NCBI GenBank assembly: GCA_000004985.1
Contig: GG738924.1
Length of the DNA stretch: 64,000 bases
Strand: one strand, 5' to 3'
Source: Naegleria gruberi
Lineage: Eukaryota
Part shown: piece by piece, positions 2-63,755 of the stretch
Layout of the letters: every line of letters begins with the position of its first letter
Numbering within the stretch: the stretch's first letter is position 1
Made by a program: the position numbers and the translations under genes
The notes under the pieces: generated by a model
What the model was told of the DNA's origin: nothing
The model's input: the letters and a program-made list of their open reading frames with translations, nothing else
Database searches by the model: none

Positions 2-1650
2 AATGGGAAAAGTTCAAAAGTGGAGGAAGAGAGTGAAATAGATGCAAGTTTACTTGATCAATTACCATTTGATATGAAATTTGAGATTATCTCTTTCATT
101 CCAACTTATTCGAAACAAGAACGAATTAAACTAGTCGAGAGAAATGTAAGAATAGCCTGTGAACTCTTGAAAATATGTGAGGATGAGTTTAATGATAAAT
201 ATTGTGATAAAACGTGTACTGCAATGCGTATTGAAAAGAGATTAAATCCAGATCGATTATATGAAATAGATAATGATTTTATCAGATTTGTGAAAATGAG
301 ATTGATTAATAAGGAGTTTGCCAAAATTATGAAGGAAAACATTATGAAATTGGATTTATTATATATTTATCGAGATGATATAGGAAGGAGACGATTGGTA
401 AGGACTAGTATTGAACTTGCAAGAAGAGATTATTTCAAAGACCCTTCACTTAATCCCATCTATTTTCTTTATTATTATTCACAGATAGAAAAACATGCCT
501 ATCCCTACTATGGTTATAATGATCTTAATATTGCATGTGCGCCATCTTTAGATAAACTGAGCAGGTTTGATTTTGCAGTATCATTCTATGAAAAGTTTGG
601 ATTGTCATCTAATGAAATATATTTGATGGAAAAAATAGATTTTTGTGTTAACAGGAAGGAACTAAAATTATATAGACCTACGTTCATCTTGGAAGAGTTT
701 AGAGCACTTTTGGGAGAAATTTTTCTTGCTCTAAATTAGAAATCTATTGCCTCTTTTTTGATACTAGAGTATCACAGTTTATTGTTGATGAATTAAGCAC
801 TCAAAGCTATATAATTACATTACACAAAAGAGATTTTTGCAAGAGAATACAAAGATTTATACAGACGGATGAAAATCCACCTATACAAATTAATCTATTT
901 GAGCTAGAAGAATATCATCCATTAATGGATCCTTATCCCATACAAAATAAGCTATTTTTCTGCATGGATTTATCGCAAACCAAACGAATGCTGGACTCAA
1001 TTTTAAATAATAATCATAGCTTAATTTTGGACACTACATTCCATCCTTCTCACCTAAACGAATACTTTTCAAAACTTTGTCAACACCAGTCAGGAGGAAA
1101 ATTTAATGCTCATCCTTGTGAAAGGGAGACCACTACTGACTATGAATTCATTGATGTAATTCGAAACTCTAACTATTCTATTGAACACATGATGCACGAA
1201 ACTTTGAGTCTGATTACTTTGGATCCAAAGTTACGGAGCTATTTTTATAGACCTTACATTACATTTTCAGGACCTTCTTTATTATTTGCCAATCATTATT
1301 CAGCTGGTTGTGAAATTGCTTTCCAATACATGGAAGAGCCTGAACTTTCTTATCGAGACCAAAATGGGTTAACTGTACTGCACTACATTGCAGAGAATTT
1401 TTTGGAGATTAAGCAACAGAAAATTTTAACAGAAAAATTAGTCAAATATCCCCATTTATTGAATATTTGTGATAATAGGGGAAGAGTTCCAACTGATATT
1501 TTTATGCCACCATTTGCAACAAATTTTTTACGTAACTATATTGAAGAAAATGAAATTACAATTGAACGAAGGTACATACCATTTAACCCCTTCGAGTTAC
1601 CTTCAAAGAAACAAAAACGAATTGATTCATATTTTAAGAAGAAACAATAA
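2..1650 (+). CDS. Hypothetical F-box-like / ankyrin-like protein, 5' partial (open from window start). Track ORFs 20..739 and 925..1650 are probably one gene joined by a 71-nt intron 697..767.
   Basis: The frame of ORF 20 is open back to position 2, and the track's 'M' at 20 is GTG. An LLDQLPFDMKFEIISFIP F-box-like motif is present. The reading frame of ORF 925 is open for 74 codons upstream to 703, which is unlikely by chance in AT-rich DNA. A GT at 697 and a T-rich tract before TAG at 765-767 join the two frames in phase (...FILEE|VSQFIVDEL...). Ankyrin-like NGLTVLHYIA / DNRGRVPTDIF follow downstream. The joined reading ends in TAA. Confidence 0.4.
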
Positions 1651-12972: not shown

Positions 12973-14822
12973 ATGAAAGAAAAAAAAAGTATGCAAAGAC
13001 GCCACTACAAATCCAGCATACGGCAAACAGGGAAAAGTGGCGCATCAATTAAAGGAGCAACATTTGGCAATCAACACCACCACTGTAATGATACTACTAA
13101 TAACAATTTTACATCACCATCAATAACAACTACAACGTTACAACATCATAGTAAACCAATAGTGATTCGCAAGTCACAAAATACTGAATGGAGTTGCCAT
13201 CACCAACAAAGCCAACAATTAATGCTCTCTCCTTCCAATGCTGATGATTCGGAAGATAGTACGAGTCTCATGGAAGAGGAAGAGGATCCTTCATCAGTGC
13301 TCGAATGTACAGCCACTTCAACATCTTCAATAACAACAACAACATCGATAACCTCTTCAATACTTTCATCACAAGTTGTCTCTTCTTGCAGCACTACAAT
13401 TAACCCATTCGCATCATTTGCTCTTCTTCCTCCGATTAGTAAGTTATTGATTCATCCTTCTATTTTACTCAGCATTGAACCCAATTAGAAAATAGTCCTT
13501 CCCAATCCATTCTTCCAGAAACTACTACTACTACTACTACCGATAAACCCCAACCACTCAACATTCTTGCATTCAATCCAATCCTTAATTCAATTCACGA
13601 CGAACATGAATTGTTAAAGACCTTTAAGAAAGCTCAATCTTCACCACAATCACTCATATCAACTATTTTCAATTCATTCATAATGGAAACTCTATCCGAA
13701 TATCCAACTGATGGAACTTTTGATTTTGGGTGGACGAATCCAAATACTACTGTACCGAATTCTCCTGTTGCTTCTCCTTCCACTTCCCCTCTCGAGTTGG
13801 CTAGTCCATCCAACAACAATAATAGCTTACTGAGATTTGCCTTGACTAGCAATTTACCTTCTGCCATGCAATCGGATGAAACCAATCCAAAACCACTCTC
13901 CACCAAACTTGTACAAACACTTGTGAGACACCAAGAAGAAGCAAACTCTGGTCCATTCCCAATACTGGACCCAAATGCTGTGCCTGACGAACCATTCTTC
14001 ACCTCATTCGAAACTATGAATGATTTGTTGAAGGAACATGAACGAGGTGATTTGGAATCATTCCTCCTTGCCTTACCACCTGTGAAGAAGTGTTTATGTG
14101 ATAGAAAGGCCCTCCACTGTTGTGTCTGTGGCCACGTAGGTTATGGGACAGCAAAAGATTTGTATCTGCCCAACTTGTCTACTGGTATAACTCAATCGAG
14201 ACGCCTCTTGCTACCATCTCTCAGTTCCACACTGAAAGGTAAAAAGCTGATAGCCGAAAAGAAGAAAGACCTCATGATGGACGTGTACAGAAAATCCCAA
14301 TCATCCATGATGAATGCAAGATTCCCAATTTTCCTCTCCATTTCCCATCCTGGCCACCTCCAACCTCCTTCAACGCCAGCTCCAAAACTCACCATCCCAG
14401 GAACTTTTTGTTGTGGCATGACCTATGAGATTTTTGTAAAGGTTTTTATTGCAAAACATTCACAATACAAGCAATTCTCCTCCATTGAACAAATGATGGA
14501 TATTAAGAGAGATTGGTTCTGTGAGAAGGAAGACGAAGATGATGAAACCTACAAACAAGGTTGTTACAAGGCACTCATGACACGAAATTTGGGAATACAT
14601 GTCGAGTCAATTAGTGATGCTATAAAGGGTGATTTCATTCAGTTCTGGAGGCATAACGGTACAGGTCATAGTGTTATTTTCAATAGCTTGAGTGAGGATG
14701 GTACTGAATTCGAGTATTGGTCCTCACAACGATCAACCAAAGGGCTGGGCTTCAACAAGGAAAATGTCTCTTCCATAACAAACTTTTACATTGTAAGATT
14801 AAAAGATGAACCAGCTGTTTAA
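12973..14822 (+). CDS. Hypothetical protein with poly-Thr/Ser tracts and a Cys cluster, 2 exons (12973..13438, 13489..14822)
   Basis: ORFs 12973..13488 and 13611..14822 are joined by a 50-nt intron 13439..13488 (GTAAGT...CAATTAG). The stop of ORF 1 lies inside the intron. The downstream frame is open from 13479 and contains CLCDRKALHCCVCGH. Ends in TAA. Confidence 0.45.
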
Positions 14823-25742: not shown

Positions 25743-28239
25743 ATGGATGACCATCAAATATATACATCAACAAATGACAGAGATATCATCATAGAGGAGG
25801 ATGATGCTGATTCAATTCCACCAGAGAGTCCTGCACACAAGCCACCCTCCTACTCACCATCTGTCGCCTTAATTAGCTCTCCGAGCAATCAACACCATCA
25901 ACAAAATCAACCCCACTTTAAAGAAACAATGCCAACACATCAATCCTCTAATGACAATCAAGAAAAACATTCTGGCAGGAAGAATGTTTATATAGAGGAA
26001 GAATTTGAGGACTCTGATGAAGAATCGGAATTTTCAGCAAAACACGAAACATCTGCTTCAACACTCATCTCCCAAACTTCTTCATCTACTGCCAATTCGA
26101 GAACACCTCTCACTACAGCCGATTCTTCCAAATCACGATTTGGACTTAAAATTGATATTCCCTCAAATCATCATCATGATTCTTTTCCACTAGAACATCA
26201 CGATATTACCATGCATCATTTAAAATCTCAACTCTATGAAGATGAAGATTATATTGAGGAGCTGGAAAAGATTGCAACACCAAAGAGGGGAGAGGATCGT
26301 TCTCGAGGTGTTCATTTCGATCAAGCAGCCACCAATAAGGAGGAAGAAGAACTTTTTGTAAAAACACTTTCAGCTAGAAAACATTCCCATAGTCATCCTG
26401 AAAAGAAACCACTTCCAACCACGCCAAAAGGAGAGAAATCCCTTGAGGAATTAATAACACTGAGTCCAATCGGAAAAGCCAAATTTCTTCATCAGGACAC
26501 TTCACCAAAAACTAAACATTTTGTAACTGGTTCGAAAATGTTTAATGTCACAACAGAGCAATCAACTGTACCGACCCATACAAAGAATTCATCACTCTCC
26601 TATAAGAATATGAGTGGTGTAAAATTGAGCAAACTCGAGCAGATTTACCAAAACTATTCAAAACCAACGCAACTTACTCCTCATACAATTGAGGAATCTC
26701 ACATTACCGAGAAACGATTGAAGAAAATTAGATCGAGTGTTCCATTTCATTCCAATGAAATTATTAAGGCAGATGTTTTGCTAAAGGAAGATTTTACTCA
26801 TTCACCAACTAGTCCAACTTATCAGTCCTCTTGGTCTGCTTTTAAAGAGGCCAATTCATTGCCCTCTCCTCCCAGTCTTAATAATACCATGTCGAGTGTT
26901 AATACCTATCAACAGGATATGTCCTACTCAAGTCCAAAGAGTAATGGAAGTCAGAATTTATCACCCTCATCTAAGAGTGGACAACCTTTGGATTCTCCTT
27001 CACACCAATCTACGACGAGTACATTCAGAGCTTCGAGTCCAACCAACACTTCCCCTTCTAAAAACGGATCTTGGTCCAAATTTACAGGAGGTTTTTATAA
27101 TAGTCCCGTAGGTTTTTGTAATGTCTTGATGATCATCTTAACATTTTTATTCAAATTTATTTTCAATAATGACTATTATTTCAACAGAGATGTTTCAATA
27201 CAAATCACAAACACCTCAATGATCCAAACTTTTTAAGAAAGAATGCCAATGAGGAGGTTCCAGCCAAAAGAATCATGGTTGAAAGCGAGAAAGACAACCC
27301 AACTCTGCAAAAGAAAAAGGAAGAAATCAAAAGTGCACATGCTAAATGTCAAGTTCGATCATTCAGTCCAACTACACGTTCAAGAAATAATTCTCTTGAT
27401 GGCGGCTCGTTAAAATCTGTAAATAGTAGTTTAGATAGATCATCAATACTTGAAGGTCACACTCAATTCACTGCTCAAAACAATTCTCATCTTGGTGAAA
27501 CTGATCCTGATACCCTATCGATAAGGGCCCACTCTGTCATTTCACCAATGCCTCTGGACAGAAACCCTAGGAAGGAGAAGCTCACTGCAGATGACATTCA
27601 CAGGAAGCGAAACCAGAAGTTTAATGATCCAAATACTATGCATGCCCATTCCTCATTCATAACTCAATTCAGACCAAAACAAATGAAGAAAAGAAATCCT
27701 GACGAAACCGAGGAGGAAGCTAGCCAAAGAAGAATCTACGAAAATGCCACTAAAAAGGAGATTAAGGTTGAGCATTTGAGTACGAAAAAGGCAAACTTTT
27801 TCAATTTTAAAGATTTTGATAGAAGCACTATGGCTCTTGTAAATAATGCAGATCCTGCTCTAGCAAAGTTATTTGATGCAAAGAATTATCCAGCCGAGAT
27901 GCAAGCCCAAGTGGAATATTTCAAGAGACGAAGAAATATGAATAAGAATGATTACCAGAATTTCAGTCCCAATAGATCTCAAAAACAACATACGCCTTAT
28001 TTATATTACAGGTAAGTAGGTGTGCAGATATGCAATTCAGAAATACATCATTTAATAGACGAAATGCCATCAAACAATATATGGAATTCAAGCATAAATT
28101 GGAATGTGTTTTGGGAGAGGAAATTGAAGATCTTCCTCACAATCTTTTCAAAGGTGATCAGAATACTTTGAATGTTTCTCTTCCTAGTATCAAACAAAAG
28201 ATGGAAGACAATCGTGCCAATACTTCCGCAATAAATTAA
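25743..28239 (+). CDS. Ser/Thr/Pro/Gln-rich low-complexity protein, probably 3 exons (25743..27107, 27188..28011, 28059..28239)
   Basis: Intron 27108..27187 (GTAGGT...TTTCAACAG, 80 nt) joins ORF 25743 in phase to ORF 27275. Intron 28012..28058 (GTAAGT...TTTAATAG, 47 nt) joins in phase to ORF 28030. No recognisable domain. Ends in TAA. Confidence 0.45.
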
Positions 28240-36754: not shown

Positions 36755-39700
36755 TTATTCTTTATTTTCTCGCAAAGTCCAAATTTTCTTGGATTTACTG
36801 AATCTTGCAATCTTTTGTAAAAGTTCTTTAAAGTAAATGACATCATCTCCTGTAATATAACTAAAATGCTTTCTTACTTCATCAGTTGTGGCTTTTCCAC
36901 GTTTTTGGAAAAAGGAAACAATGTTATCCACCATTTTGTTTGAACTTTTGTAAACTGGTTTGAGTTCATCAGCCAAATCATTTACATTATTTACAGATCT
37001 AGGTTGATCGCTCATAATATCTTGTTTCTTTCTAATGTTTGCCAAAAGTACAGACGATGCTAATCCACCTTTTGGATTGGTACCACTACTACTTCCCAAA
37101 GCAGATACCCTGAGCCCTCCTAATCCATTTTGTCCTGTGAAAGTTGGTACAGATAAAGGCATGCTTTTTCTTAATTCTCCTGATTTTTTTAATTCCTTAA
37201 CAGCAATTTCAGCTATTTGTTTTGCTTGTTTTTCCAAAATTGATGTTTCAGAACTGGTAGTATTCACAACAGAGTCATGATTGAAAATACTTTTAACAGA
37301 CTTTTCGTCAAATAAGCATTGCAAAATATAAGTCTCATCCTTTTTTGAGTCATCTTCTGAGCCCTTGAATTTTTCTACACGATATTCCACATCTTTCTTC
37401 TTCTTCTTAATTGTTGGCATGTCTTGCCTTAAAATTTCACTATTCGAGAACAAATTACCAGTCTCTGTATTCTCTTCATCATCGTCATAAGGAATAGATT
37501 TGTTGCCATTCTTTCTTCTCACAGAGTCATATTCTTTACCAAGAGTAAATAACTCATAAAGATCATTGGACTTGAAAAATCTCTTTTGTCTAGGATCCTT
37601 GAGAACCTTATTCGAAAGAAATTGTTTGAAAATTTGTCTATGATACATCTTCTCTTCAATAGTACCACTTGTCATCAATCTGTAAACAGTAACTTGTTTA
37701 GTTTGACCCAATCTCCATGCTCTTTCGAGAGCTTGAAGATCTGTGGATGGATTCCAGTCAGGATCGAATAAAATAATTCTATTTGCACCAATTAAATTCA
37801 CACCCAATCCTCCTACCTTTGTTGTTAGTAAAAACACAAAGATTTTGTCATCACTATTGAATTGATTAATCAGTACGCTTCTCTCCTTTACAGGAGTGTC
37901 GCCATCCATTCTAGAATAGGTATAGTCTCGTTCTTGTAAAAATGGTTCAAATACATCTAACATTTTCTTACTTTGAGAAAAGAGTAATACTCTATGATTT
38001 TGTTCCTTCCAAAGACTCAATAGCTTTTCTACAACCATCATTTTACCTGACTTTTCTACTGCACCAAAATCATCAGGTTTCTTCTCAGTACATATCAAAT
38101 CAGGATGATTACAAACTTTTCTGAGATTAGTAATGGCTTTGAAAAGTAAATGTTCTCCATCAAGGGTTCCAGTAACTTCTCTACTCTTCAAATATTCATC
38201 ATATATCTTAACTTGTTTGTCTGTCAATTTACAAAAAATTACATTTTCCTTCTTTTCAGGTAATTGATGCTTTACATCTTTCTTCATTCTTCTTAAAAGA
38301 TATGGCTTGATTAAATCTCTCAGTACACATGAACATTTGTAAGCTGTTTGTACTTGAAATTTGGTTGCATTCGAATAACCACCCTGTGTGATAGGAATTG
38401 AAAATTGGGTGAGAAATACTGGAAGAGTTCCGAGCTTTCCAGGATAACAAAAATCAAATAGTGACCAAAGCTCTTTCAAATTGTTTTGAATTGGTGTACC
38501 TGTCAAAATAATTCTGTGTGGTGTTTCAAATCTTTTACATGCTAATGTTAAGGCAGCATCAGGATTTCTAATCTTGTGACCCTCGTCCAAGATAATATAT
38601 CCCCACTTTTTAGAAGTAAGCACGTCTTGATAAATTCTTAAAGATTCATATGTTGTGATAAGAACACCATTAGGGCAGCTGGAAACCTTCTCTATGAGTG
38701 ACTCGAAATTGGCTTTAGTTCCTTGAGATGTGTGCATAATCACAACTCTAAGCTCTGGCCACCATGTATTAATTTCTTCTTGCCATTGCTTCATTACAGT
38801 TGCAGGTGCAATAATGATAGAAGGTTCGAATAATCCACTAAAGTGAAGTCCAGCAAGGAAAGTGGTAATTTGTACAGTCTTTCCCAATCCCTATAACATG
38901 TTATAAGGATTGAACCAATAAAACTACTTACCATTTCATCTCCCAGTATTCCTCCAACTCCTTGTCTATTCAATTCGCACATCCACTTAAGAGTAGTCTT
39001 TTGATATCCAAATAACTTGTCATAAATCTCTTTAGGGATTGAGTAAGATCCTGCAATTTGTATACTTGGTCCATAATTCACTTTAGTAACTTCCATTTCT
39101 TCGCCTTCATCACTGATTATAAACCTTTTAGTCACTTCTCTTGTTTCATAAAATTCCTCCAATCTCTTTTTATAGTATTCATCATTCGAATCGTCCTCTT
39201 TAAATTCCTTTTTCATTGGTACTTTTTCTTCCTCTTCTTCCTCTTCTTCCTCGTCATCCTCTTGATTTTCCTCATCATCTACATAATCTTCATCATCTTC
39301 GTCCTCCTTCTTGATTTTCTTTGGTTTTTTATTCTTATCTTGTTCTGGAGCCTTTCGTTTACCTGGTTTAGGCAATTGAAAATATCATTGGCTTCATTAG
39401 AAGGCATATTATCAAACGGAGTAATGATACCTGTTCTAATTAATCTTTCTCTTTCCGATTCATTATTATCATTATCAATTACATTTAATGATTCTCTAAT
39501 TTCTCTTCTATCTTCCAATTCTTCGATCATTTCGTCTTTCTTATCCAAGAGAGTTGCAATTTTCTTCTTCAAACTCTTTATTTTCTTTTCATCACTACTC
39601 GAAAGTGATGATCGTTTATTCAACTCTTTTAATTCCTTTTCATACTTTTCGATTTTTGCATTTAATTTATCAATTCTGCTGTGTTCCTTTTTTTCTAATA

Positions 39701-39929
39701 CTTTTTGATTTTCTTCAATTTGTTTATTCACTTCATCCATAACATTCTTTTCAATGTCTTCGGTTCTGAAGGCAGACACTCCCAACATTGATAAATCGTC
39801 TTCGGATGGTCCAACCGACCGAAGTGATGTATTTTCATGTTGTTCTTGTTGTTCGTGTTCATTTGTTGTTGAATTTCTTCCTGAAGATGATGATGAAGAG
39901 GAAGCTACAGCAGAACGACTGCGCAGCAT
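36755..39929 (-). CDS. ERCC6: CSB/ERCC6 (Rad26)-type SNF2-family DNA-dependent ATPase, 3-4 exons (39929..39363, about 39318..38932, 38890..36755)
   Basis: N-terminal coiled coil plus the [10 protein letters not shown] leucine-latch motif. Acidic DEYYKKRL region, GGILGDEM|GLGKT Walker A restored by a 41-nt intron 38931..38891 (GTAAGT...TTATAG). DEGH, helicase-C and SNF2 motifs follow. A further short intron (GTAAAC...AG, about 44-53 nt, starting 39362) or a -1 frameshift connects the first two track ORFs. The track ORF 39279..39929 that ends in TAG is the out-of-frame continuation. Ends in TAA. Confidence 0.85.
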
Positions 39930-40138
39930 TTTTTTTCTTGGTTTTGGCGTACTTGAACATTTTTATTTTTGGGTTACAAAATACACTTCGAATTTTCGCT
40001 GGAACTCAAAGAAAATTTGCAGTAATCGGTGGTTTCACACTTTAAAAAAAAACGAGTTCTCATTCCAACAAGTAACACCCACGCAGTTGTTGTAGTTTGG
40101 AAGAGGAACTTTGAGATTTTTGCAAAAAAAAACAAAAG

Positions 40139-45261: not shown

Positions 45262-48200
45262 ATGAAAAAGATATCAACCTTTTTAAAGAGGAAGGAAAGT
45301 GAACATAGATCAAAGCATGCCAGCAATAGCAGCTCTGGGAGTTCTCCAATCTCTCCGAATCATCAAGGCTTTGTGATGGTTGAACATGAAGACGCCATTC
45401 TAATTTCTAAAAACAGCAGCACAACAAGTTCAACAGCTGTGGAATGGAATGAAAAGCTTGAAGAGGATTTCAAGCAATACTTGGACAAAACCTTCAAGAA
45501 TCAAACTGAAACAATAGAAAAGTTGATGGCCCTTCCACCAAAGAAAAAGATGGAAATTCTCAAATTGAAGCAATCTCAGATCAGTTCTCAGAACAATATC
45601 TTACTTCACTTGGAAACAACAATGAATAACATCAAACATCCGCTCTCCACCTTGACACTACATACGCAACTGAAGGAATTGAGAGTTGTCTTGTCAAACT
45701 ATGCCGAAGCAGAAGAAGCATTCATCAATAGAGGTGGTGTTGATTTCACCATGAAATCTCTTTCCAATAATCTCGGTAATCTGAATGGAGCTGCAGACGA
45801 GAATAACAAACTCTTGTTTGCTGAAATTACCATCTCTATTATTATGATCTTGACTCAAATTTGCAAAAACAATGAAGGATTGGAAAAGTTTTTAGAATAT
45901 CCAAATAGTATTGAAGAAATCTCCAAGGCTCTCTTACTGGAACATGAAGATAAGGGTCAGAGGAACTCGATATATTTCCTATTGTCATCATTGTGTTTTT
46001 GTAGGGATGGTACCTACGTTCCACAAGTTTATGAATCTGTTAAGAATTTGTCAAAAATTAGAGGTGAAGAACAATTCTTAACTGTTGTGCAGCATTTGAG
46101 AGAGGCCAACAGTTTAAAGAGCAGATACATCATTCTGGCCTTTATCAATATTTTGATGAGGCAAGCTCCTGTTCAATTCAGAAGAGAGCTAAAGCAACGA
46201 TTTATCAGCGCAGGTGTTTATACTGAGGTTAAAAAACTGGAAAAGATTAAAGTGGAAAATAAGGATACAGAGGATGCCCTCAAGCTAAGCAACCAAATAG
46301 AAATTTTCAACAAGATTATTTCTGGAGATTTAGAAGAAGATATTTTTGATGATTTGAGAGAAATTGTCGAAGAATTAGAAAATTCTAATGTTCCTCTAGC
46401 TGAGGGAATTAAGGCAGTTTCTGAAAAGATGTTGGAGAAATGTAATCAAACTTCGTAAGTTTTAAACAGTTTCAACATCATTAATTATTTATTCAACAAC
46501 AGATCAAGTTTGGAATGGGTCAATGATATCAAAATAATTTTGGAGGGAAGTGAATCTGTAAACTTGTTAAAAGATAGAAATCTCTCACTTCAAAAACAAG
46601 TGGATACCATTACAAAAGATAATGCACAATTAAAAGATCAAATGGAAAAGCTAAAAGTCAGAATTGAAGCTTTGGAGAAGGCACCACCAACAGTTATTGT
46701 GAAAAAGGTTGCAGTTGTAAGACAAGTTGGAGAATTGAAATCGTCTGGTTCCGGTAGTAATCTTGCAGGTTTAGTGGAATCCAATTCACCGACAACATCA
46801 CCTCCTAATATTTTTCCAGATGATACAGTTCCCTCTTGTAACAGCTCTGTTCCACCACCTCCTCAAGCTAGCTCTGTAGTGCCTCCACCTCCAGGAATGG
46901 GAGGTGTTGTTCCTCCACCACCAATTGGTTCAAGCTCAGTTCCTTTGCCTCCCATGACCATCAGTAGCTCTGTTCCTCCTCCACCTGTGGGGTTCAATAG
47001 TTCTGTTCCACCTTCGTCATCTATTCCTTTACCACCAGTAATGGGAACTGTTCCACCAAATTCTGCCATTCCTTTGCCACCAGGAATGAATAGCTCTGTT
47101 CCAATGCCTCCAGGTATTCCTGTACCACCAGGAATAGAAATGCCAGTGGTAGGAAGTACTGTTCCTCCTCCTCCAGGTTTTGGTGGCGTTCCTCCTTCTG
47201 GGTCTGTTGTTCCTCCACCTCCAGTTGGAATGACTAGCTCAGTACCATTACCTCCAGGAATGGGAGTATTGTTCCTCCACCGCCTTTCTCAAATGTACCA
47301 ATGCCTCCTGGTTTTGGAGGTGTTCCACCTCCTCCTGGAATGAATGGTACTGTTCCAGTTCCTCCACTAGGAGTGGGAATGCCACCCCCACCAATGTTTG
47401 GATTTGTACAAACACCACCTGTTATTGCAAGTGCTCCAAAACTTCCAGACATACCTAAGAAGAAGGCTTCTGTGCCCACTAAGGACGTAAGACTCAACAA
47501 ACTAGATAATAACAAACTTCAAAAGTCTGTTTGGATGAAGAAGAACATTCATGCCAAGTTATTCGATATTGATATTCCAGAAAAAGAATTAGAAGATATG
47601 TTCGCTCAAATTTCTAAATCCCCTAGTGTAGGTTTAACTCCAGAAAAGTCAGAAAAACCAAAGGATACAACAATAAGTTTATTGGAAGGACCTAGATTGC
47701 AAAACGTTTCCATCTTTATGAAATATCTCAAGATGCCTTCAACTCAGTTGGTTGAAAAGATAATGACCATCTCTGATGATTTTAATGAGGAATCAATTGG
47801 AAAATTGTTGAATCAAGTTCCTAATGAAGATGAAATTCAAAGACAAAATGATTTTGATGGAGATGAAGCCACATTGAATGAAGCCGATAAGTTTATCAGA
47901 GCCATGATGAAGGTTCCGAGACTTGCTTCCAGATTGAAATGTTGGAATTTCAAGTTGAAATATGTTGAAACAAAGGCTTGTATCAACCCAGACTTGGAAA
48001 CCATCATTTCAACATGTGCTAGTTTGGTAGAATCTGAAAAACTTCAAGAATTGTTTGCTGTCATTTTGGCTTTCAGTAATTACCTTAGCAGGACTGGTAT
48101 CCATGGATTCAAATTGAACTCTCTCCAAAAATTAAAAGAAACAAAAGGTAATGCTAAGAACATTACGCTCCTTGATATGATTGTCAAGCATATTACAAGT

Positions 48201-49103
48201 GCAAAACCAGATATTCTCAAAGTTAAAGAAGATTTGAACATGTTGGAAAGGGCTGCCAGAGTTGAAATGCAAACATTAGCAGACAAGATTGACAGTATGG
48301 AAAAGTCTATTGCTCTTCTGAAAACAGAGATTCAATACTATAGTAAAAATCCACAGCCAAACGATAGATTCTTGGAAGTTTTTGGATCCTTCCTGAATGA
48401 ATGTGAGGATGAAATGAAACTTATTAAGGAAAAGCAACAAAATATGGATAATCAAATTTCAGGGGTTGCTGAATTCTTGGGTGAAGACCCAAACACTGTA
48501 AAGAAGGAACCAAAGGAAATGTTTTTAATGTTAAATTCATTCATTACTGACTTGTACAAATCAGTAGATAATTTGAAAAAGGAAGAAGAAAAGAGAAAGA
48601 AGGAAGAAAGCAAGCTTGCTAAGGAGAAAGACAATCGTCCATCATCCCCTGTAGTTACAGTTGGTGGATTGAAGGCATTTAATTCATTCAGAACACCATC
48701 TAAAGTTCCTCTCATTGCTGAAAATGCAGATGTTTCTGTAACACCAAGCAGTCCTGTAACTCCAATTATTATTTCCTTACCAGATAGTGAACCAAGTGTG
48801 GAAATCACTTCTCCAAGTACACCAATTCAAGAGAAGCAAAATGAGCCAACTATCGAATTAACCAAGAATGGACATGATTTGCTTTCACCTTCGATGCAAA
48901 TGGGTAATTCTTTCGAAGAAAATAGTCCATCAAGACGTAGTGGTCACATTAGAAATCCTTCCATTCTCATGTCTCTTGAAAAGTCCCTATATGAAGGTTC
49001 TGCCTTATTGTCCCCATCTACAAAGACAAGAAAGAGAGGTGGAGGAATGATGACAGGTTTAGATATGAATGAATTGAGTGCTGCATTAAATAAAAAAAAG
49101 TAA
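45262..49103 (+). CDS. Diaphanous-related formin (GBD/FH3 - coiled coil - FH1 - FH2), at least 2 exons (45262..46454, 46503..49103), with an apparent 1-nt frameshift inside FH1 near 47265
   Basis: Armadillo-like GBD/FH3 in exon 1. A 48-nt intron 46455..46502 (GTAAGT...CAACAACAG) lies at the TCG|GTAAGT junction. Exon 2 has a coiled coil, then about 15 tandem (S)SVPPPPGM proline repeats (FH1, 46850..47420). The FH2 (ORF 47301..49103) is then in the next frame. Ends in TAA. Confidence 0.8.
46850..47420 (+). repeat. Coding tandem repeat (formin FH1 polyproline units)
   Basis: About 15 imperfect 27-36-nt units encoding (S)SVPPPP(G)(M/I/F). The short reverse-strand ORFs here (46863.., 47021.., 47234..) are artifacts. 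Confidence 0.7.
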
Positions 49104-50550: not shown

Positions 50551-52683
50551 ATGACTCACAAGAATAACTCTACCACCAACAATACCACAACGTCTTCATC
50601 CATTGACCAAAATGCTACCACTTTTCAATTTCAATTTGTCTTTGACAAGGTCATGCTCAACCAAAGAACATTGAAATTATTCAAAGAATTTCTAATGAAG
50701 AGTTTACATTCCCCAGAAGCTATCCTCTTCTATGAGAAAGTTCTCGAATTTAAATCATTCGAAGGACAAGCTCTGACTGAACATCAGACGAAACTTGCTT
50801 AGAATATTGTGGAGAATGTTATTTTTGTTGGCTCCGCGCATGAAATTAACATTGGAAAAAGAGAGAGAAATCAGGTACTTGAGAGGGTGAAGAGATTATT
50901 AGGTAATAACCCACAAAGAAGTGAAGTTGAGTTGCAATATTTTTCGAATAGTAAGCAAACGCTCAATAAGAAAGAAACCGAAAGTGATGAACAATCAGAA
51001 ACTTCAACAAATAAGCAAAAGAGCTTTTCTTCGATGAATGAGACTTCTACCTTCATAATGGTCGATCCAATTAACATTTTTGATGAAGCATTAGTGACAG
51101 TTAAGAGACAACTCAAAGAAGACGTGTTTCCACTTTTTTTGAGAAGTGACAGATTTCTGACATTTTGTAAGAAGGCATCGAGAGAAACTCTGGGAGAGAT
51201 TGGTTATGAGAGAAGACAGTGTCGTCAATCTGGCAACGTTTCTATTGAAGATTTTTGGAAATTTTACAGAGCTGATTGTGAATCTCTAAATGTCAATGGT
51301 CAAGATGTCAAATTTTTAAGCTCTTTATCAATAGATAGTTCTGATTGGACTCTATTAGAGCAAGAATACTTTAAAAAGAGTTGTTTTGCAACATTTGTTT
51401 CATCTGAAACTCATTGCATGATTAGACCAGAAACTTCCGAATATAGAAATCCAAATTCACAACATATTTACAAATGTACAGGTGTCATTAATCACTCAAC
51501 TGAGAAAGTATTGAAAGCTCTGACAGATTCTCACTTTATGGCCACTTATGATAATAATTTAGCTGTTTGTGAATGCATTGATTTTGTAAATTCTCAAATT
51601 CAAAGCAATTCTCTTCCTGAATCATTATTCGAATTGGACGAAACTGTTCAATTCTCCTCCTCTATCATTCTACAAAATTATCCTTTCAACTGGCCACTTT
51701 CTGGAAGAGATTTCCTCACCAGTCAAACAGATGTCTATGAAAAATCCACTCAACGTTATTTCATTCTCATCAAATCTGTCAACCATCCACTTGCCAAACC
51801 AAAAGAAGGAAGTGTCAGATCTTATCTTGTCGGTGGTTGGATTATTCAACCAATTTCTGATGAATTCTCACGATATACTTTGGTCAATTATATGGATGTG
51901 AATATGAGTGAAAAATTAGTTCAGCAATTTCAACTGAGGAGAGGAAAGAAATTATTCCATTCGTTGAATAAGATATTGAAAGAGATGGACAGGAGTTCAA
52001 TGAATGAGGTGAATGATTCGTGTGGTTTATTGGAAACTTTGGACGAATTTTTGGATTTATACGAAATTAACATTGATGACCAATATAGGAAAGTGAAGAA
52101 ACTAAACAAGATGGAAATGAAGGAACTTCTCACTCCAAGAAAAACTCACCTCGCAAGCACTTCTACCTCAAATCTCGACCACCTTTCGAATAAGATTATT
52201 CGATTGACCTACATTTCCAAATGTAAGAAAAATTTCAATTCTACAGAGCTTGACAAGATTGCAACCACTGCAACTCGATTCAATTCCAGTATCAACGTAA
52301 CTGGTCTCCTTCTCTATTGTAAAGAAGGAATTTTCTATCAAGTATTAGAAGGTGAAAAAGAATTAGTTTCAAATCTATTCGAAAAGATTAAGAAAGATTC
52401 GAGACATTTCGATGTGAAATGTGTCAAAATGGAAACAGATTTATGTGATCGTGATAGACAATTCAAGGGATGGGCCATGAACACAGTTAACTTGGAAACG
52501 TCAGATCATTTCTTTGCTGATTTTATGAAAGAATTATTAGTGACAGTTTCAAAGATGGAGCTCAATAACATGACAGAAGATCAAGCTGTTGGGTTTATAT
52601 TCAAGACATCGAGGCAGATGTTTGAGAAGAGTAGGGAGAGCGGATTTGTTTCGAGATTAGGTTCTTGTTTTTGTATGAAATAA
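50551..52683 (+). CDS. RGS - START - BLUF multidomain signalling protein, interrupted by an in-frame TAG at 50800-50802
   Basis: RGS domain: FDKVMLNQRTLKLFKEFLMKSLHSPEAILFYEKVLEFKS ... [TAG] NIVENVIFVGSAHEINIG ... FDEALVTVKRQLKEDVFPLFLRSDRFLTF. START-like region: YFILIKSVNHPLAKPKEGSVRSYLVGGWIIQPISDEFSRYTLVNYMDVN. BLUF: RLTYISK...INVTGLLLYCKEGIFYQVLEGE...DSRHFDV...RQFKGWAMN. Ends in TAA. Confidence 0.7.
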
Positions 52684-53065: not shown

Positions 53066-56000
53066 ATGAGCAGCGTTGAATATCAGCACGGCAATGAAGT
53101 GCTTTTCATAAAGAAGGGAAGTAGTGGCGAGTCAACCAACAACAATAATAACGCGATGACCACAGAAAGTAATGATCATAAGGCACAGGAATTGGCTCAT
53201 CACGGCGATTCGAAGGATGAACATGTTGATAGTCAACATCATCACCCGAAAGGACCGTTTACATTAACGGCAGATGAATTGTCAGAGATGCATCAGAATA
53301 AGGATTTGAAAGGGTTGCAAAAGATGGGTGGAATGTCTGGTTTGATGAGAGATTTGAAAACTGATGCAAAGAGGGGGATTGCCTGGAAGTCGAATTATCA
53401 AAGTTATGATGAGAGGACGAATCTGTATGGTCTTAATGTGTATCCTGAACCGCCGGCTAAAGGTCTCTTCAAAATATTCTTTGAGGCTCTATCAGACGAA
53501 ACTCACATTATTTTAATGATATTCGCCTTCATTTCGATGGTGTTGGGATTGGCATTTCCTGAATCTGAAGAGGAAAGACCAATTGGTTGGATTGATTCGT
53601 TTGCAATTTATATAGCTGTAGCTATTGTTTGTGTGGTTACAACCGCCAACGACTATTCGAAAGAGAAAAAGTTTAAAAACTTGTCAAGAGAATCCAAAAA
53701 GGTAATGGTTAAGGTTATTAGAGATGGGGAAAATTTTAGCGTTCTCACTGATGATATCAGAGTTGGAGATATTGTTGAAATTGAACAAGGAGATGGTATT
53801 CCAGCTGATGGGCTCTGTATTGAATCAAACCATTTGAAAACAGACGAATCTGTCATGACAGGAGAACCAGATTTGATTAAGAAGAATACAACAGAATTAA
53901 TTTTCTTATTGAGTGGTTGTACAGTTGCTGAAGGTTCTGGAAAGATGCTTGTTACAGGTGTTGGTGTTGGAAGTGAATGGGGAAGAACCTTGCAAAGTTT
54001 GAAAGAAGCCAATGAAGAACAAAGAGAAACTCCTCTCGAAGCCAAATTAGATAAGCTCGCCATCAATATTGGTAAAGTTGGTACTGCATTTGCGATTGGT
54101 ACTGTTACCATTTTGATTTTGGCCTTTTGGATTAAGAAATTGATGTACACTTCAACTTGGGTTGAGGCCTCATCAACATTTGAAGAAACTTGGCAAGAAA
54201 AGAATGTAGTTGATGTGGTCAAGTACTTTATTATTGCTTTGACTATTGTCGTCGTTGCTGTCCCTGAAGGTTTACCACTTGCTGTCACAATTGCTCTTGC
54301 TTACTCTGTTCGTAAAATGATGAAAGATCAGAATTTAGTTAGACACTTGGCAGCTTGTGAGACTATGGGTGGTGCTAACAATATTTGTTCTGACAAGACT
54401 GGTACACTTACTTTGAATCAGATGAGAGTTACCCAAGCTTATTTTGGAGATCGATTCTTTGGTGAGCAATTGAGCTCAATACTGTTGACATTGAAATCAC
54501 CACTGTTGCAAGTAATCATTGATGGTATTGTTGCCAATTCAAAGGCAAACTTGGTCAAGGGTGATGACAATAATAAGAATAAGGAGTATGCCACTCAAGG
54601 AAGTAAGACTGAAGCTGCTCTTTTACTTTTACTTGTCAAACATTTGAATCAGACCATTGACAGTTACAAAGATAGAAGAAATGAATTGCTAAGTGAAGAA
54701 AGAGGCTCTCACCTCCAACTTCCATTCAATTCCAACTTGAAGCGTATGAGTACCATCGTTACAAACTCTGAGGGAGAAACCAGATATCGTCTCTTCACAA
54801 AGGGTGCTTCTGAAATTGTCCTCAAATTGTGCTCCTATCACATGGCTAGTGATGGTTCATTGAGAAAGATGGATTCTGAAAAGGAAGCTGAAATGATGAA
54901 ATGTATTGAAGATATGGCTAATCAAGGTTTGAGAACAATTTGCTTGGCCTACAGAGATGTCAATCCAGAAGTTGAATTCTCATCACGAGCTGATGAAGAA
55001 AATTATTTAGAAAATATTGATCCAGTTACCTTGGAACAAGATTTAGTATGTATTGGTATTGTAGGCATTAAGGATCCATTGAGACCTGAAGTACCAGCAG
55101 CTATTGAACAATGTAAGAAATCAGGTATCACTGTCCGTATGATTACAGGTGACAATATCTTGACAGCCAAGTATATTGCCAGAGAGTGTGGTATCTTGTC
55201 GAAGGATGGTATTGCTATTGAAGGCCCAACATTCAGAAAGATGACTCCAGAGCAAATTGATGAGATTCTTCCAAAATTACAAGTTATGGCTCGTTCCTCA
55301 CCAACTGACAAGTTTATTCTTGTAAAGCATTTGAGAAAGAAGGGTAACGTTGTTGCTGTGACTGGAGATGGTACCAATGATGCTCCAGCTCTTAAAGAAG
55401 CCGATGTTGGATTGAGTATGGGTCTTAGTGGAACCCAGGTTGCTAAGGAAGCTTCTGATATCATTATTTTGGACGATAACTTCTCATCCATTGTTAAGAG
55501 TGTGTTGTGGGGTCGTTCCATTTACGAGAATATCAGAAAGTTTTTAGTTTTCCAATTGACAGTCAACGTGGTTGCTTTGATTTTAACAATTGTTTCTGCT
55601 GTTTCGTCTGCTTTCCAACATAATTCTTCCTATAGGCCACCTTTGAGTCCTGTACAAATGTTGTGGATCAACTTGATCATGGACACGTTTGCAGCTCTCG
55701 CCCTTGCCACAGAACCTCCAATTCCAGAACTTTTAGACAGAAAACCTCACGGAAGAAAGGATTCCCTCATTACAATGAGAATGTGGACCTTCATTGCTGC
55801 TGAATCAATCTTCCAGCTCACTGTCATGTTCACACTCTTCTATGGAGCAACCTCATTCAGAGGACTTTCATTCAGCTTAGCCAGAAATGATGCTGAAATG
55901 AGAACCATCATTTTTAATGCTTTCGTATTTTGTCAAGTTTTCAATCAATTCAACGCAAGAAAGATTAATTTTGAGTATGATATTTTCAGAGGAGTTTTCA

Positions 56001-57250: not shown

Positions 57251-58627
57251 TTAATACTCATCATCTTCTTGATTGGAAGAACTTTCATCATCATTGTATC
57301 CGTACCGTTGATTCCATCGACTAGAATGAACATACTCCCTCTCTGTAGTTGTAATTTCAGGCTGAAATTCAGATAAATTTAAATAGCCTTCATTCATCTT
57401 GGCTTGATTGTTGTTGGAGTGATGATGAGAAGCAGCAGCAACACCTCCTCCTTCTCCCATCTTGCTAGCTTTACAGATGGGACACGGATACTCCTTATTA
57501 AAGCCTTTCCATGCCTTTAAACAATCCGCATGAACATTTACTCCACAACAATGACAATATCCTGCCTCCTTCTGTTCATCAAGTTGAGAAAATCCATCAC
57601 AACAAATAGGACAATTGGAAGTGATGAAGGGATTTCTCTCCTCTTCTCCTTTTAGATGTTTGTAGGTGGCTATGGCTTGTGAATTTGCCATTGAATTATT
57701 AGCTGGAGCCTTCTTGAATATTTCCTCTAATTCTGATGGTAGCAAGGCATGTTGATAGATGAGATAGGAAGACTCTTCTATACGTAGTACCTTCAACAGA
57801 ACGAATAACTTAATTTACACAACATAATAATAATAATTAACAATATATATTTACATCACGATTAACAACGAATAGATAATTAATTAGAGAGGAGAAAGTA
57901 CTTACAACATGTTTACACAGATTACCATTCTCTGCATCAGGACAATTACACGAAGGTTCTTCACCAATAACAACATCATAGACATTACCTGTTGTTCCCA
58001 TCACGACAAATGTCTGCTCATGAGCACTATTTACCTTTCTTTCTATGAGGAATAATCTACGTGATATGTGTTAAATAGTAGTATTTCATATCATTATTGA
58101 ATTAATTGTGAAATTATTGGAACAACCTACTTTTGAGTGAGAGCTCTTTCAATTCTTTCTTGAGTTTTAATTGGACAACTGGAAACAAATCTTCTCTTTC
58201 TATGTTCTTTAGATTTGTGAGAGCTAATGTGATGATGAGTGGTTGCTGCAACCTCAGCTGGTTCTTCCTTTTTTGAAATGGACAAGGAACTGAATGAATG
58301 TGGATGCAACAAATCCTCCTCCAGAATATCATCACTCACCTTCTCCTTCTTTGGACTTTCTTCCTTCTTTAATTCGGAATCATTGTGTTTTCTCTTCTCT
58401 CCATGATGATCATGATGATGTTCCTCCACCAAATGATTGAATTCTTTAATCTTTTCAATTAATTCTTCCTTTCTCAAATGGGAACAACCATGATAAATTC
58501 CCAAATCTTTCATGTGTTGTTTTAATTGGTCAACTGTGAGAGCCCACAAGTCCAAATCACTGTAGAATACTTTAAAACTGCCAGATGATGATGTAGCAGT
58601 AGAATGATGATGATCAGTTTGATGCAT
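57251..58627 (-). CDS. SAP - SWIM zinc finger - RING-type E3 ubiquitin ligase-like protein, 3 exons (58627..58131, 58056..57906, 57790..57251)
   Basis: Exon 1 has a SAP-like LTVDQLKQHMKDLGIYHGCSHLRKEELIEKI. Intron 58130..58057 (GTAGGT...CACGTAG, 74 nt). Exon 2 has the SWIM CxCxnCxH (CNCPDAENGNLCKHV). Intron 57905..57791 (GTAAGT...TTGAAG, 115 nt). Exon 3 has RING-like CPICCDGF...CHCCGVNVHADCL...CPIC. Ends in TAA. Confidence 0.65.
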
Positions 58628-58829
58628 TCTTTTGAATTATTTGAATTAACTGTTTATTATCTTTCTTTAGTCCAATTATTTGAAGTTCAAAAATGGAACC
58701 TTTTCATATTTGGTCAATTTGATTTGAACCAACTTTTTCTTGAGGACTTTAACAGAATTTAACTGTTGGTTAGTATTTAGTATTGGAACTGTGAATCATC
58801 ATGATTGCCTTACAATGTCTAGAAATTGC

Positions 58830-62240: not shown

Positions 62241-63755
62241 CTAGTTAAATTCTTGATAATCAAAATTCAACTTGGAAAATGTGGGATTTTTAAAGAAAGC
62301 TTCTTCACCTTCTTCAGAGGTAACTTGTCGCATTCCATACCATTGAAACAATCTCAAATTGATTAGAGTTTTACAATTCAAAATAAGTTCTGTAGTCAAT
62401 AGTTCTTCAGTATTCCTAAAGTCAGTTGGATAAGAATGTAATTCCTCCAATTTAGTAAAATTTGGACTTGTGAATAGTATTTCAAATATCTCATCCCAGC
62501 ATGAAATGTCTAATCGTTTCAAATTGGATAAATTTGGTGAACTTATTAGGTCAATTAAGGCATTGCTTGATTTCTTCTCTATTGAAGGTATTATGATTGT
62601 TAGTTTTAAAAGATTTGTGCAATAATTGGCCAATGAAGGAAATGATGCAATATTGGAAAAATTCAAATCTGTGAGTGATGATCTCGTGTGAATATCTGTA
62701 GGTAGTTCAATAATTGAATTGTCTGTGCTTGAACAGCTTGCATGAAGAGTGGCAAGTTTAGGCAAATTTGGAGAAACTAACAAATCACCTAATTCCCTAT
62801 TAGAAATAGAGCAGTGAGCAATATCTAGGAAAGTAAGATTCATAAAGCTGCCATCTGTCAGTAATTTTGGATAATTTGTCAGATTGAAACGTCTAATTTC
62901 CAAACGTTCCAAATCATTCTTATCTTTCAAACACAAATCAAGTCCATAATTTCCAGTTTCCATTTTGAGTGATTTCAAATTTAAATGTGAAAGATTCTTT
63001 AAATATTTTGAATTTGAAAGAATTTCAATAAATTCTTTTGACATTTCATGTTGAATCTCCAATTTCTTGATATTTGACAGTAATGAACTGCTATGAAACA
63101 GTTCCTTTGCCTCAATTTCTGTAAAATTACTAGCATTATTCAACTTGAGTTCTGTTAAATTTGGCATTTGACATTTCGCCAAATATTTAACAGCTGTTTT
63201 CCCCAACCGTGAGTAATTCAAATCCAAAGTTTTCAAATTCTGCAATTTTTTACAACTAGAAAGTGATTTAAACATGTCAGAAGTTGGATGTTGCATTCTC
63301 AATGATGTTACATTTGTAATTAGTGAACTCTTTACCAATTGACCAATCATTGTTTTTGACTTGTCAACTTTTACAGTGAAATTTACTCGATTTAGAGTTT
63401 GTTTCCATGATTTACAAACTAATTGACAGCAATGAACAAGGTTTTTCAAATCTAAAAATTGGTAAATATGAAACAAGTTATCCGAATTTAATTGTTCGGA
63501 CGAAACCTTTCGTCTATGAATATCGACTTGTTTTAAAAATTCGTGTATATTTTCAATAAATTCATCGATCATACCGCTGTTGTTCACAAAGTAACGATTA
63601 TCAACCAATTTAACTTTGCTTGCCAATGAAATTAATTGACTATTGACAGATGTCATCTCATCAAACAGAACCGACTCGATATCAGTCACCATTTTCTCAT
63701 CACCATCTTGATCGATATTTTGTGATGTTTCGTGTTTTCTCTTCTTGTTTGTCAT
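62241..63755 (-). CDS. F-box / leucine-rich-repeat protein (504 aa)
   Basis: LFHIYQFLDLKNLVHCCQLVCKSWKQTLN is an F-box. About 12 LxxLxLxxC/N LRRs follow. Ends in TAA. Confidence 0.65.
   Translation of the reverse strand: MTNKKRKHETSQNIDQDGDEKMVTDIESVLFDEMTSVNSQLISLASKVKLVDNRYFVNNSGMIDEFIENIHEFLKQVDIHRRKVSSEQLNSDNLFHIYQFLDLKNLVHCCQLVCKSWKQTLNRVNFTVKVDKSKTMIGQLVKSSLITNVTSLRMQHPTSDMFKSLSSCKKLQNLKTLDLNYSRLGKTAVKYLAKCQMPNLTELKLNNASNFTEIEAKELFHSSSLLSNIKKLEIQHEMSKEFIEILSNSKYLKNLSHLNLKSLKMETGNYGLDLCLKDKNDLERLEIRRFNLTNYPKLLTDGSFMNLTFLDIAHCSISNRELGDLLVSPNLPKLATLHASCSSTDNSIIELPTDIHTRSSLTDLNFSNIASFPSLANYCTNLLKLTIIIPSIEKKSSNALIDLISSPNLSNLKRLDISCWDEIFEILFTSPNFTKLEELHSYPTDFRNTEELLTTELILNCKTLINLRLFQWYGMRQVTSEEGEEAFFKNPTFSKLNFDYQEFN

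What the first reader, a model, noticed from the sequence alone, without database searches (positions are those of the whole stretch)
50788..50814. In-frame TAG inside a conserved RGS domain, in a window where TAG is never a confirmed terminator
AAA CTT GCT TAG AAT ATT GTG GAG AAT GTT reads K L A * N I V E N V I F V G. This sits exactly at the A..IY..FI helix of the RGS fold. The conserved RGS sequence continues in the same frame on both sides, so it is not an intron or a frame change. Across the window the 18 confident terminators are TAA (14) and TGA (4). No TAG terminates a confident gene. TAG appears as an apparent stop only inside inferred introns (gene at 2..1650, gene at 12973..14822), in a wrong-frame ORF (39279..39929), or on the low-confidence 18240 ORF where it overlaps a GTAGGT. 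Possible explanations are programmed readthrough or a reassigned TAG (a Gln, Lys or Arg would suit this helix position), a young pseudogene, or a single-base sequencing error.
Basis: seen in the sequence. Interest (0 to 1): 0.6.

Follow-up and report, generated by a model that had tools for sequence, protein, structure and literature searches.

The report
Premature stop in Naegleria RGS-BLUF gene
One of two copies of a blue-light-sensor/G-protein-regulator gene in the amoeba Naegleria gruberi carries a single premature TAG where the other copy and the nearest relative have glutamine; TAG is a normal stop codon in this genome, so this is a broken (or mis-sequenced) gene copy, not a change in the genetic code.

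Summary
The window is Naegleria gruberi NEG-M (three window proteins match NCBI entries exactly). The in-frame TAG at 50800-50802 is real. It lies inside the RGS domain of a 710-codon RGS-START-BLUF gene (50551..52683, +), and homology continues on both sides.

The claim that TAG is never a terminator here fails.
- The F-box/LRR gene NAEGRDRAFT_54100 ends at TAG 62243-62241, at the position where two of its paralogues end.
- Taking only TAA and TGA as stops gives 32 long ORFs with 14,865 codons. Only this one TAG lies in an ORF interior. The two other reading frames of the same ORFs hold 156 and 225 TAGs.
- My count of terminators is 22 TAA, 5 TGA and 1 TAG.

A second N. gruberi copy sits on another scaffold (EFC36104.1). 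It has Gln at this position, as does the intact Willaertia magna homologue. TAG is one C-to-T step from CAG.

The context, UAG-A with no downstream RNA structure, is that of an ordinary terminator.

Best reading: a recent nonsense substitution in one of two diverged copies, that is, a young pseudogene or null allele. A base-call error is less likely. Readthrough is unlikely, and reassignment is excluded. The finding is ordinary. The RGS-START-BLUF family itself is a small side curiosity.

The parts
50551..52683 (+). RGS-START-BLUF gene. It has 710 codons and a single exon, and is intact apart from one internal TAG. No annotated protein for this locus was found.
   Evidence: ORF and translation. 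Pfam RGS and BLUF. Homologues P0001, P0131 and P0132. No exact or near-identical model of this locus turned up.
50800..50802 (+). In-frame TAG at codon 84. It corresponds to Gln in the second N. gruberi copy and in Willaertia magna. The context is GCU UAG AAU.
50641..51165 (+). RGS domain, aa 31-205, with a low-complexity insert at about aa 118-165. It is interrupted by the TAG.
   Evidence: Pfam PF00615, E 2.7e-11. Alignments to PDB RGS domains on both sides of the site.
51283..52005 (+). START-like lipid-binding domain (helix-grip fold). It has no Pfam match.
   Evidence: AlphaFold2 model with pLDDT mostly 75-90 in this part. Foldseek matches STARD5 2r55_A (E 9e-11, TM-score on target 0.71) and STARD4 and CERT START domains.
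52198..52479 (+). BLUF flavin blue-light sensor domain. The Tyr, Gln and Trp/Met motifs are present (LTYIS, FYQVLEG, GWAM).
   Evidence: Pfam PF04940, E 6.2e-25. Foldseek matches BLUF domains of photoactivated adenylyl cyclases at 38% identity.
62241..63755 (-). F-box/LRR gene NAEGRDRAFT_54100. Its terminator is TAG at 62243-62241. This is the counter-example to the claim that TAG never terminates a gene here.
   Evidence: The annotated protein P0124 ends at ...DYQEFN, and MAFFT aligns that end with the C-termini of paralogues P0126 and P0128.

Best explanation
The TAG is an ordinary premature termination codon. It most likely arose by a single C-to-T change from a CAG Gln codon. It sits in one of two diverged copies of a Naegleria gruberi RGS-START-BLUF gene; the copies may be haplotypes or recent duplicates.

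TAG is read as stop in this organism. This copy would therefore give an 83-residue fragment lacking most of the RGS fold and all of the START and BLUF domains. That makes it a young pseudogene or a null allele. The rest of the reading frame is still intact because the lesion is recent.

Shown: the stop, the domain context, Gln in the sister copy and in the Willaertia homologue, normal stop behaviour of TAG, and the absence of readthrough signals. Inferred: that the base is real rather than a base-call error, that the ancestral codon was CAG, and that the product is non-functional.
For: - Organism: RPB2, the PMCA calcium pump and an LRR protein of the window are exact matches to N. gruberi NEG-M entries on a 196,593-bp scaffold.
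- The stop lies inside the RGS domain, with homology on both sides.
- Second copy: EFC36104.1 / NAEGRDRAFT_76231 lies on a 40,920-bp scaffold and reads KLAQNIVE where the window reads KLA*NIVE. The intact Willaertia magna homologue (43% identical) reads EAQKIIE, with CAA.
- The two N. gruberi copies differ at 20 residues plus two in-frame indels within aa 16-163. That requires at least 23 nucleotide changes in 489 nt. A real difference at this site is therefore far more probable a priori than a sequencing error.
- The window copy has Val at aa 90. The other 12 aligned family members, including the second N. gruberi copy, have an aromatic residue or His there (F, Y or H). This hints at relaxed constraint.
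- TAG behaves as a stop: 1 interior in-frame TAG in 14,865 codons against 156 and 225 out of frame, and one TAG-terminated gene.
- The context UAG-A matches the commonest +4 base of true terminators, 15 of 28. There is no downstream RNA structure.
- No annotated protein for this locus appeared in any search.
Against: - No reads are available, so a base-call error cannot be excluded.
- There is no second disabling lesion. The 626 codons after the TAG are open, and the BLUF key residues are intact. The gene is otherwise indistinguishable from a functional one.
The CAG ancestor and dN/dS are therefore inferred, not seen.
- The second copy is known only as a chimeric gene model fused to the PMCA tail. 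It is unknown whether a full-length intact copy exists.
Confidence: 0.75

Rival explanations
1. Sequencing or assembly error. The true base at 50800 is C (CAG, Gln) and the gene is intact and functional.
For: - Apart from this codon the 710-codon frame is perfect and the domain motifs are intact.
- The sister copy has Gln.
- The assembly is a 2010 Sanger draft (my own knowledge).
- A nearby formin gene shows an apparent 1-nt frameshift with no intron, which could indicate local consensus errors.
Against: - Substitution errors in a Sanger consensus are rare, about 1e-4 to 1e-5 per base (my own knowledge). The two copies, by contrast, truly differ at 4.7% or more of sites in this segment.
- The local sequence is not a homopolymer or a compression-prone motif.
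- No gene model for this locus was found, which fits a stop in the sequence the annotators used; why no model exists was not established.
Confidence: 0.13
2. Functional stop-codon readthrough. UAG is occasionally decoded, for example as Gln by near-cognate tRNA-Gln, giving low levels of full-length light-regulated RGS protein from this copy.
For: - The downstream frame is fully open for 626 codons.
- Gln, the residue in the sister copy and in Willaertia, is what near-cognate decoding of UAG commonly inserts (my own knowledge).
Against: - The stop is not conserved in any homologue.
- The +4 base is A and the -1 codon is GCU. This is not a known leaky context such as UAG-CARYYA or +4 C (and my own knowledge).
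- No RNA structure follows the stop, z = -0.01.
- An open downstream frame is equally expected for a recent mutation.
Confidence: 0.05
3. Reassigned TAG. In this organism TAG is a sense codon (Gln, Lys or similar) or is read by a dedicated suppressor tRNA.
For: - TAG is rare as a terminator, 1 of 28.
- This TAG aligns with Gln.
Against: - Only 1 interior in-frame TAG occurs in 14,865 codons of ORFs defined without using TAG as a stop. The other frames hold 156 and 225.
- One gene terminates at TAG, where two of its paralogues end.
- The other in-frame TAGs lie in introns or in GTAGGT splice donors.
- The only tRNA gene in the window is tRNA-Ala(TGC).
- Rare use of TAG as a terminator is what an AT-rich genome is expected to show.
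Confidence: 0.01
4. Truncated but functional product. Translation starts downstream of the TAG, at the first in-frame ATG (51034, aa 162). This would give a START-BLUF protein without a working RGS domain.
For: An open frame of 549 codons runs from ATG 51034 and keeps the START and BLUF domains intact.
Against: - It would need reinitiation after an 83-codon ORF.
- That ATG lies inside the RGS domain.
- No such model is annotated.
- All full-length homologues keep a complete RGS domain.
Confidence: 0.04

Closest known systems
Young pseudogene or null allele created by a single nonsense substitution (CAG to TAG)
   Same: - One in-frame stop inside a conserved domain.
- A sense codon one mutational step away in the sister copy and in the Willaertia homologue.
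- The rest of the frame is intact.
- No gene model for the locus was found.
   Different: - It is not verified in reads.
- There is no second lesion.
- Whether the sister copy is an allele or a paralogue is unknown.
Nuclear codes with UAG reassigned, such as UAR=Gln in ciliates and UAG=Gln in Iotanema spirale (Panek et al. 2017, cited from memory and listed in PMC6657734)
   Same: A TAG aligned with Gln in homologues.
   Different: In those organisms in-frame TAG is frequent in many genes and TAG is not a terminator. Here it occurs once in about 15,000 codons and does terminate a gene.
Programmed stop-codon readthrough genes, such as the viral UAG-CARYYA context and eukaryotic readthrough extensions
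   Same: An open frame continues after a UAG.
   Different: - The stop is not conserved.
- The context is not leaky.
- There is no downstream RNA structure.
- The stop lies in the middle of a domain, not before a C-terminal extension.
Fungal RGS-LOV photoreceptors (BcLOV4; PMC6099885) and Naegleria/Euglena BLUF adenylyl cyclases
   Same: These compare with the gene, not with the TAG. They combine a flavin blue-light sensor with a signalling domain. RGS-LOV also pairs an RGS domain with a photosensor.
   Different: The sensor here is BLUF, not LOV. A START lipid-binding domain lies between RGS and BLUF. There is no cyclase domain. No function has been tested.

Membership tests
Stop-codon reassignment (TAG as a sense codon) | TAG occurs in frame at many positions in many conserved genes | tested here: not met
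   Taking only TAA and TGA as stops gives 32 ORFs of at least 200 codons, 14,865 codons in all. They hold 7 in-frame TAGs. Six are at ORF margins, in introns or at the true terminator, and only 50800 is interior. The other frames hold 156 and 225 TAGs.
Stop-codon reassignment (TAG as a sense codon) | TAG is not used to terminate genes | tested here: not met
   NAEGRDRAFT_54100 (62241..63755, -) ends at TAG. The annotated protein ends there, and MAFFT aligns that end with the C-termini of paralogues P0126 and P0128.
Stop-codon reassignment (TAG as a sense codon) | A cognate tRNA with anticodon CUA, or an altered eRF1 | not testable with these tools
   Only 64 kb is available. Its single tRNA gene is Ala(TGC). 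The rest of the genome could not be retrieved.
Programmed stop-codon readthrough | The stop codon is conserved at the same position in orthologues | tested here: not met
   The second N. gruberi copy and Willaertia have Gln. More distant homologues have Q, K, A, S, L or F.
Programmed stop-codon readthrough | A leaky sequence context or a stimulatory downstream RNA structure | tested here: not met
   The context is GCU UAG AAU AUU. The +4 base is A, as in 15 of 28 true terminators. Folding 124 nt gives -19.2 kcal/mol against a shuffle mean of -19.17, z = -0.01.
Programmed stop-codon readthrough | Protein or ribosome footprints beyond the stop | not testable with these tools
   No expression data are accessible.
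Pseudogene or null allele by nonsense mutation | An in-frame stop inside a conserved domain, with homology on both sides | tested here: met
   The Pfam RGS match spans aa 31-123 across the stop at aa 84. Both fragments match RGS separately. PDB RGS alignments agree.
Pseudogene or null allele by nonsense mutation | Close relatives carry a sense codon one step away | tested here: met
   EFC36104.1 has Gln (codon not seen; CAG would be one step away). Willaertia has CAA Gln.
Pseudogene or null allele by nonsense mutation | Further signs of decay, such as extra stops, frameshifts or loss of conserved residues | tested here: inconclusive
   There are no other stops or frameshifts. One conserved aromatic position is Val only in the window copy. 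dN/dS could not be computed without the DNA of the second copy.
Pseudogene or null allele by nonsense mutation | The stop is present in the underlying reads, so it is not an assembly error | not testable with these tools
   No reads and no independent N. gruberi assembly could be reached. The metagenome scan found no close relative.
RGS domain (PF00615) | The score exceeds the Pfam gathering cut-off | tested here: met
   44.3 bits against a cut-off of 23.9, E 2.7e-11.
BLUF domain (PF04940) | The score exceeds the Pfam gathering cut-off, and the fold matches | tested here: met
   87.6 bits against a cut-off of 25. Foldseek matches BLUF domains of photoactivated cyclases at 38% identity.
START lipid-transfer domain | Helix-grip fold matching solved START domains | tested here: met
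   Foldseek: STARD5 2r55_A, E 9e-11, TM-score on target 0.71; STARD4 at 0.72. There is no Pfam sequence match, so membership rests on the fold only.

The most novel reading that the evidence does not exclude
The TAG is real and is read through at a low level, most plausibly as Gln. The level of a blue-light-regulated RGS protein in Naegleria would then be set by termination efficiency. This would be a first case of functional UAG readthrough in a heterolobosean.
Probability: 0.04. Interest if true: 0.45.

Novelty: already known. Interest (0 to 1): 0.12.

Why it matters
The finding matters little in itself. A lone premature stop in one copy of a lineage-specific gene is routine. It also shows that a small sample of terminators in an AT-rich genome can wrongly suggest a variant genetic code.

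It has practical value for annotation. This locus appears to lack a gene model, and the sister model EFC36104.1 is a chimera with the PMCA tail.

The only mildly interesting by-product is the gene family. RGS-START-BLUF proteins occur in Naegleria, Willaertia and environmental protists. They could couple blue light to G-protein signalling. I could not find them described in the literature I searched.

Tried and rejected
- **Intron hypothesis.** There is no GT in the 60 nt upstream of the TAG. The only in-frame GT...AG option (GTTCTC at 50740 to the TAG, 63 nt) has a poor donor and would delete a conserved RGS helix that all homologues encode. Rejected.
- **Exact look-ups of window ORFs.** The 549-aa and 83-aa fragments, the 320-aa neighbour, RPB2 and the PMCA were looked up in the gene-position index. 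N. gruberi is not indexed there, so no genomic context or second-scaffold DNA could be fetched.
- **First word-indexed protein search.** It returned only one metagenomic homologue and missed the N. gruberi and Willaertia proteins. The exhaustive HMMER search found them later. My early impression that there was no close relative was wrong.
- **JGI metagenome scan for close relatives.** It found nothing.
- **RNA structure after the stop.** None.
- **Literature.** No paper on a variant code or readthrough in Naegleria, and none describing an RGS-BLUF protein. The 2011 Naegleria genome review (PMC4929615) is not held.
- **Other candidate TAG terminators.** The TAGs at 58129 and 18510 turned out to be GTAGGT splice donors. 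They were not counted.

Full report
**Source and observation.** The window is from Naegleria gruberi strain NEG-M. The RPB2 ORF (21537-25235), the PMCA calcium pump (53066-56314) and an LRR protein (33464-34471) are exact matches to EFC36869.1, EFC36876.1 and EFC36872.1. All three lie on one 196,593-bp scaffold.

The TAG at 50800-50802 is in frame with ATG 50551 and TAA 52681-52683, a frame of 710 codons. Pfam finds RGS (E 2.7e-11, aa 31-123, spanning the stop at aa 84) and BLUF (E 6e-25, aa 550-643). The pieces before and after the stop match the N-terminal and C-terminal parts of the RGS profile separately. Alignments to solved RGS domains also run through the site. An AlphaFold2 model of the post-TAG part, searched with Foldseek, shows that the middle domain is a START fold (STARD5, TM-score 0.71) and confirms BLUF.

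**No intron or frame change explains the TAG.** There is no GT within 60 nt upstream. The only in-frame GT...AG option would delete a helix that every homologue encodes.

**Is TAG a stop here?** I defined ORFs using only TAA and TGA as stops. This gives 32 ORFs of at least 200 codons from their first ATG, 14,865 codons in all. They contain 7 in-frame TAGs. Six are at ORF margins:
- upstream of the annotated start (33452, 38893);
- the last three bases of a GTAAGT...TTAG intron (13486);
- near frame changes (737, 39281);
- the real terminator of a gene (62243).

Only 50800 is interior. The +1 and +2 frames of the same ORFs contain 156 and 225 TAGs. In-frame TAG is thus avoided as strongly as a stop codon should be.

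The 504-aa F-box/LRR ORF 62241..63755 (-) ends at TAG. The NCBI model NAEGRDRAFT_54100 ends at the same residue, and MAFFT aligns that end with the C-termini of two of its five N. gruberi paralogues. Two other apparent TAG stops (58129, 18510) are the TAG inside GTAGGT splice donors. The exon after the first of these encodes a SWIM zinc finger in frame.

My tally of last-exon terminators is 22 TAA, 5 TGA and 1 TAG. At that frequency, finding no TAG among 18 terminators is unremarkable. So the premise that TAG is never a confirmed terminator fails, and reassignment is excluded for practical purposes.

**What stood at this position?** The exhaustive HMMER search found what the word-indexed search had missed.
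- EFC36104.1 / NAEGRDRAFT_76231 is an N. gruberi protein on a different, 40,920-bp scaffold. Its first 318 residues are a second copy of this gene's N-terminus, and it reads KLAQNIVE where the window reads KLA*NIVE.
- The Willaertia magna homologue (KAL9658754.1, 644 aa, 43% identical, single intact exon) reads EAQKIIE, with CAA.
- More distant family members have Q, K, A, S, L or F at this column.

TAG is one C-to-T transition from CAG.

The two N. gruberi copies differ at 20 residues and two in-frame indels within aa 16-163. That needs at least 23 nucleotide changes in 489 nt. They are identical over the next 156 residues. They are therefore distinct sequences, either divergent haplotypes or a duplication with partial homogenisation. 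N. gruberi is reported to be heterozygous (PMC9928731).

EFC36104.1 then jumps to the last 58 residues of the PMCA. The jump uses a GTATTG donor right after ...HSTEK and a CAG acceptor before TIPLNW. It is a chimeric gene model across a gap or a deletion. Whether a full-length intact second copy exists is unknown.

**Mechanism.** With TAG read as stop, this copy yields an 83-residue fragment that lacks most of the RGS fold and all of START and BLUF.

Against programmed readthrough:
- the stop is not conserved;
- the context is GCU UAG AAU, with +4 = A, the commonest base after true terminators here (15 of 28);
- 124 nt downstream fold no better than shuffles, z = -0.01.

The open 626-codon frame after the stop and the intact BLUF motifs say that the lesion is recent, or an error. 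They do not say that it is read through.

One hint of relaxed constraint: the window copy has Val at aa 90, where the other 12 aligned family members, including the sister copy, have F, Y or H.

Real mutation or base-call error cannot be settled without reads. The copies really differ at 4.7% or more of nucleotides in this segment, whereas Sanger consensus substitution errors are orders of magnitude rarer (my own knowledge). I therefore favour a real nonsense difference (about 0.75) over an error (about 0.13). Readthrough and downstream initiation get a few per cent each, and reassignment about 0.01.

**Comparison and novelty.** This is the familiar case of a young pseudogene or null allele made by a single nonsense substitution. 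It resembles UAG=Gln codes only in that the TAG aligns with Gln, and it fails both testable defining features of a reassignment. It fails the two testable features of programmed readthrough.

The finding is ordinary (interest 0.12). The RGS-START-BLUF family is a small side curiosity. At least 13 proteins match at E < 1e-30, in Naegleria, Willaertia and metagenomes, and some relatives lack BLUF. I found it described nowhere in the searchable literature. Its nearest described analogue is the fungal RGS-LOV photoreceptor (PMC6099885).

**Limits.** N. gruberi DNA outside the window could not be fetched. No close relative exists in the JGI metagenome collection. All three word-indexed protein searches and the single exhaustive search were used.

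Noticed in passing
window 46459-49103 (+), about 47262-47268: The formin gene is split between two overlapping ORFs in different frames, 46459..47343 and 47238..49103. The Pro-rich FH1 repeat continues across the switch (...PLPPGMG | SIVPPPPF...) with no GT..AG intron. This looks like a 1-nt frameshift, either an assembly error in a Pro-rich repeat or a real lesion.
   Followed up: no
window 50551-52683 (+); P0131-P0142; L001; L002: The gene belongs to an apparently undescribed RGS-START-BLUF family. Members occur in N. gruberi, Willaertia magna (intact, single exon, L002 10001-11935) and metagenomic protists. Some relatives are RGS-START without BLUF (P0152, P0167, P0172). It may be a blue-light-regulated G-protein regulator, analogous to fungal RGS-LOV.
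   Followed up: partly
EFC36104.1 (P0131), N. gruberi 40,920-bp scaffold; window 51508 and 56138: The annotated protein NAEGRDRAFT_76231 is a chimera. It joins aa 1-318 of a second copy of the RGS gene to the last 58 aa of the PMCA, through a predicted splice (donor GTATTG, acceptor CAG). The two copies change abruptly from about 12% amino-acid divergence (aa 16-163) to identity (aa 164-319).
   Followed up: partly
window 58130-58047 (-) and 18509-18512 (+): GTAGGT 5' splice sites create apparent in-frame TAG stops. The gene 58636..57251 (-) continues after an intron of about 85 nt into a SWIM zinc finger (CNCPDAENGNLCKH).
   Followed up: yes
window 28013-28021 (+): The TAA that I counted as the terminator of ORF 27173..28015 sits in ...AG|GTAAGTAGGT. 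It may be a splice donor rather than a stop.
   Followed up: no
window 39279-39962 and 38794-39384 (-): The N-terminal part of the ERCC6/SNF2-like gene switches frame near 39360 (CAG|GTAAAC) without a clear intron. The TAG at 39281 is out of frame in the continuing ORF.
   Followed up: no
method: The word-indexed protein search, run with the X-containing 710-aa query, missed a 93%-identical N. gruberi protein and a 43%-identical Willaertia homologue. The exhaustive HMMER search found both. Negative results from the indexed search should not be read as absence.
   Followed up: yes
L001 1278-1430: The metagenomic homologue P0001 has a GTAAGT...TAG intron inside the N-terminal part of its RGS domain. 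The prokaryote-style gene call therefore starts at an internal Met and omits exon 1.
   Followed up: yes
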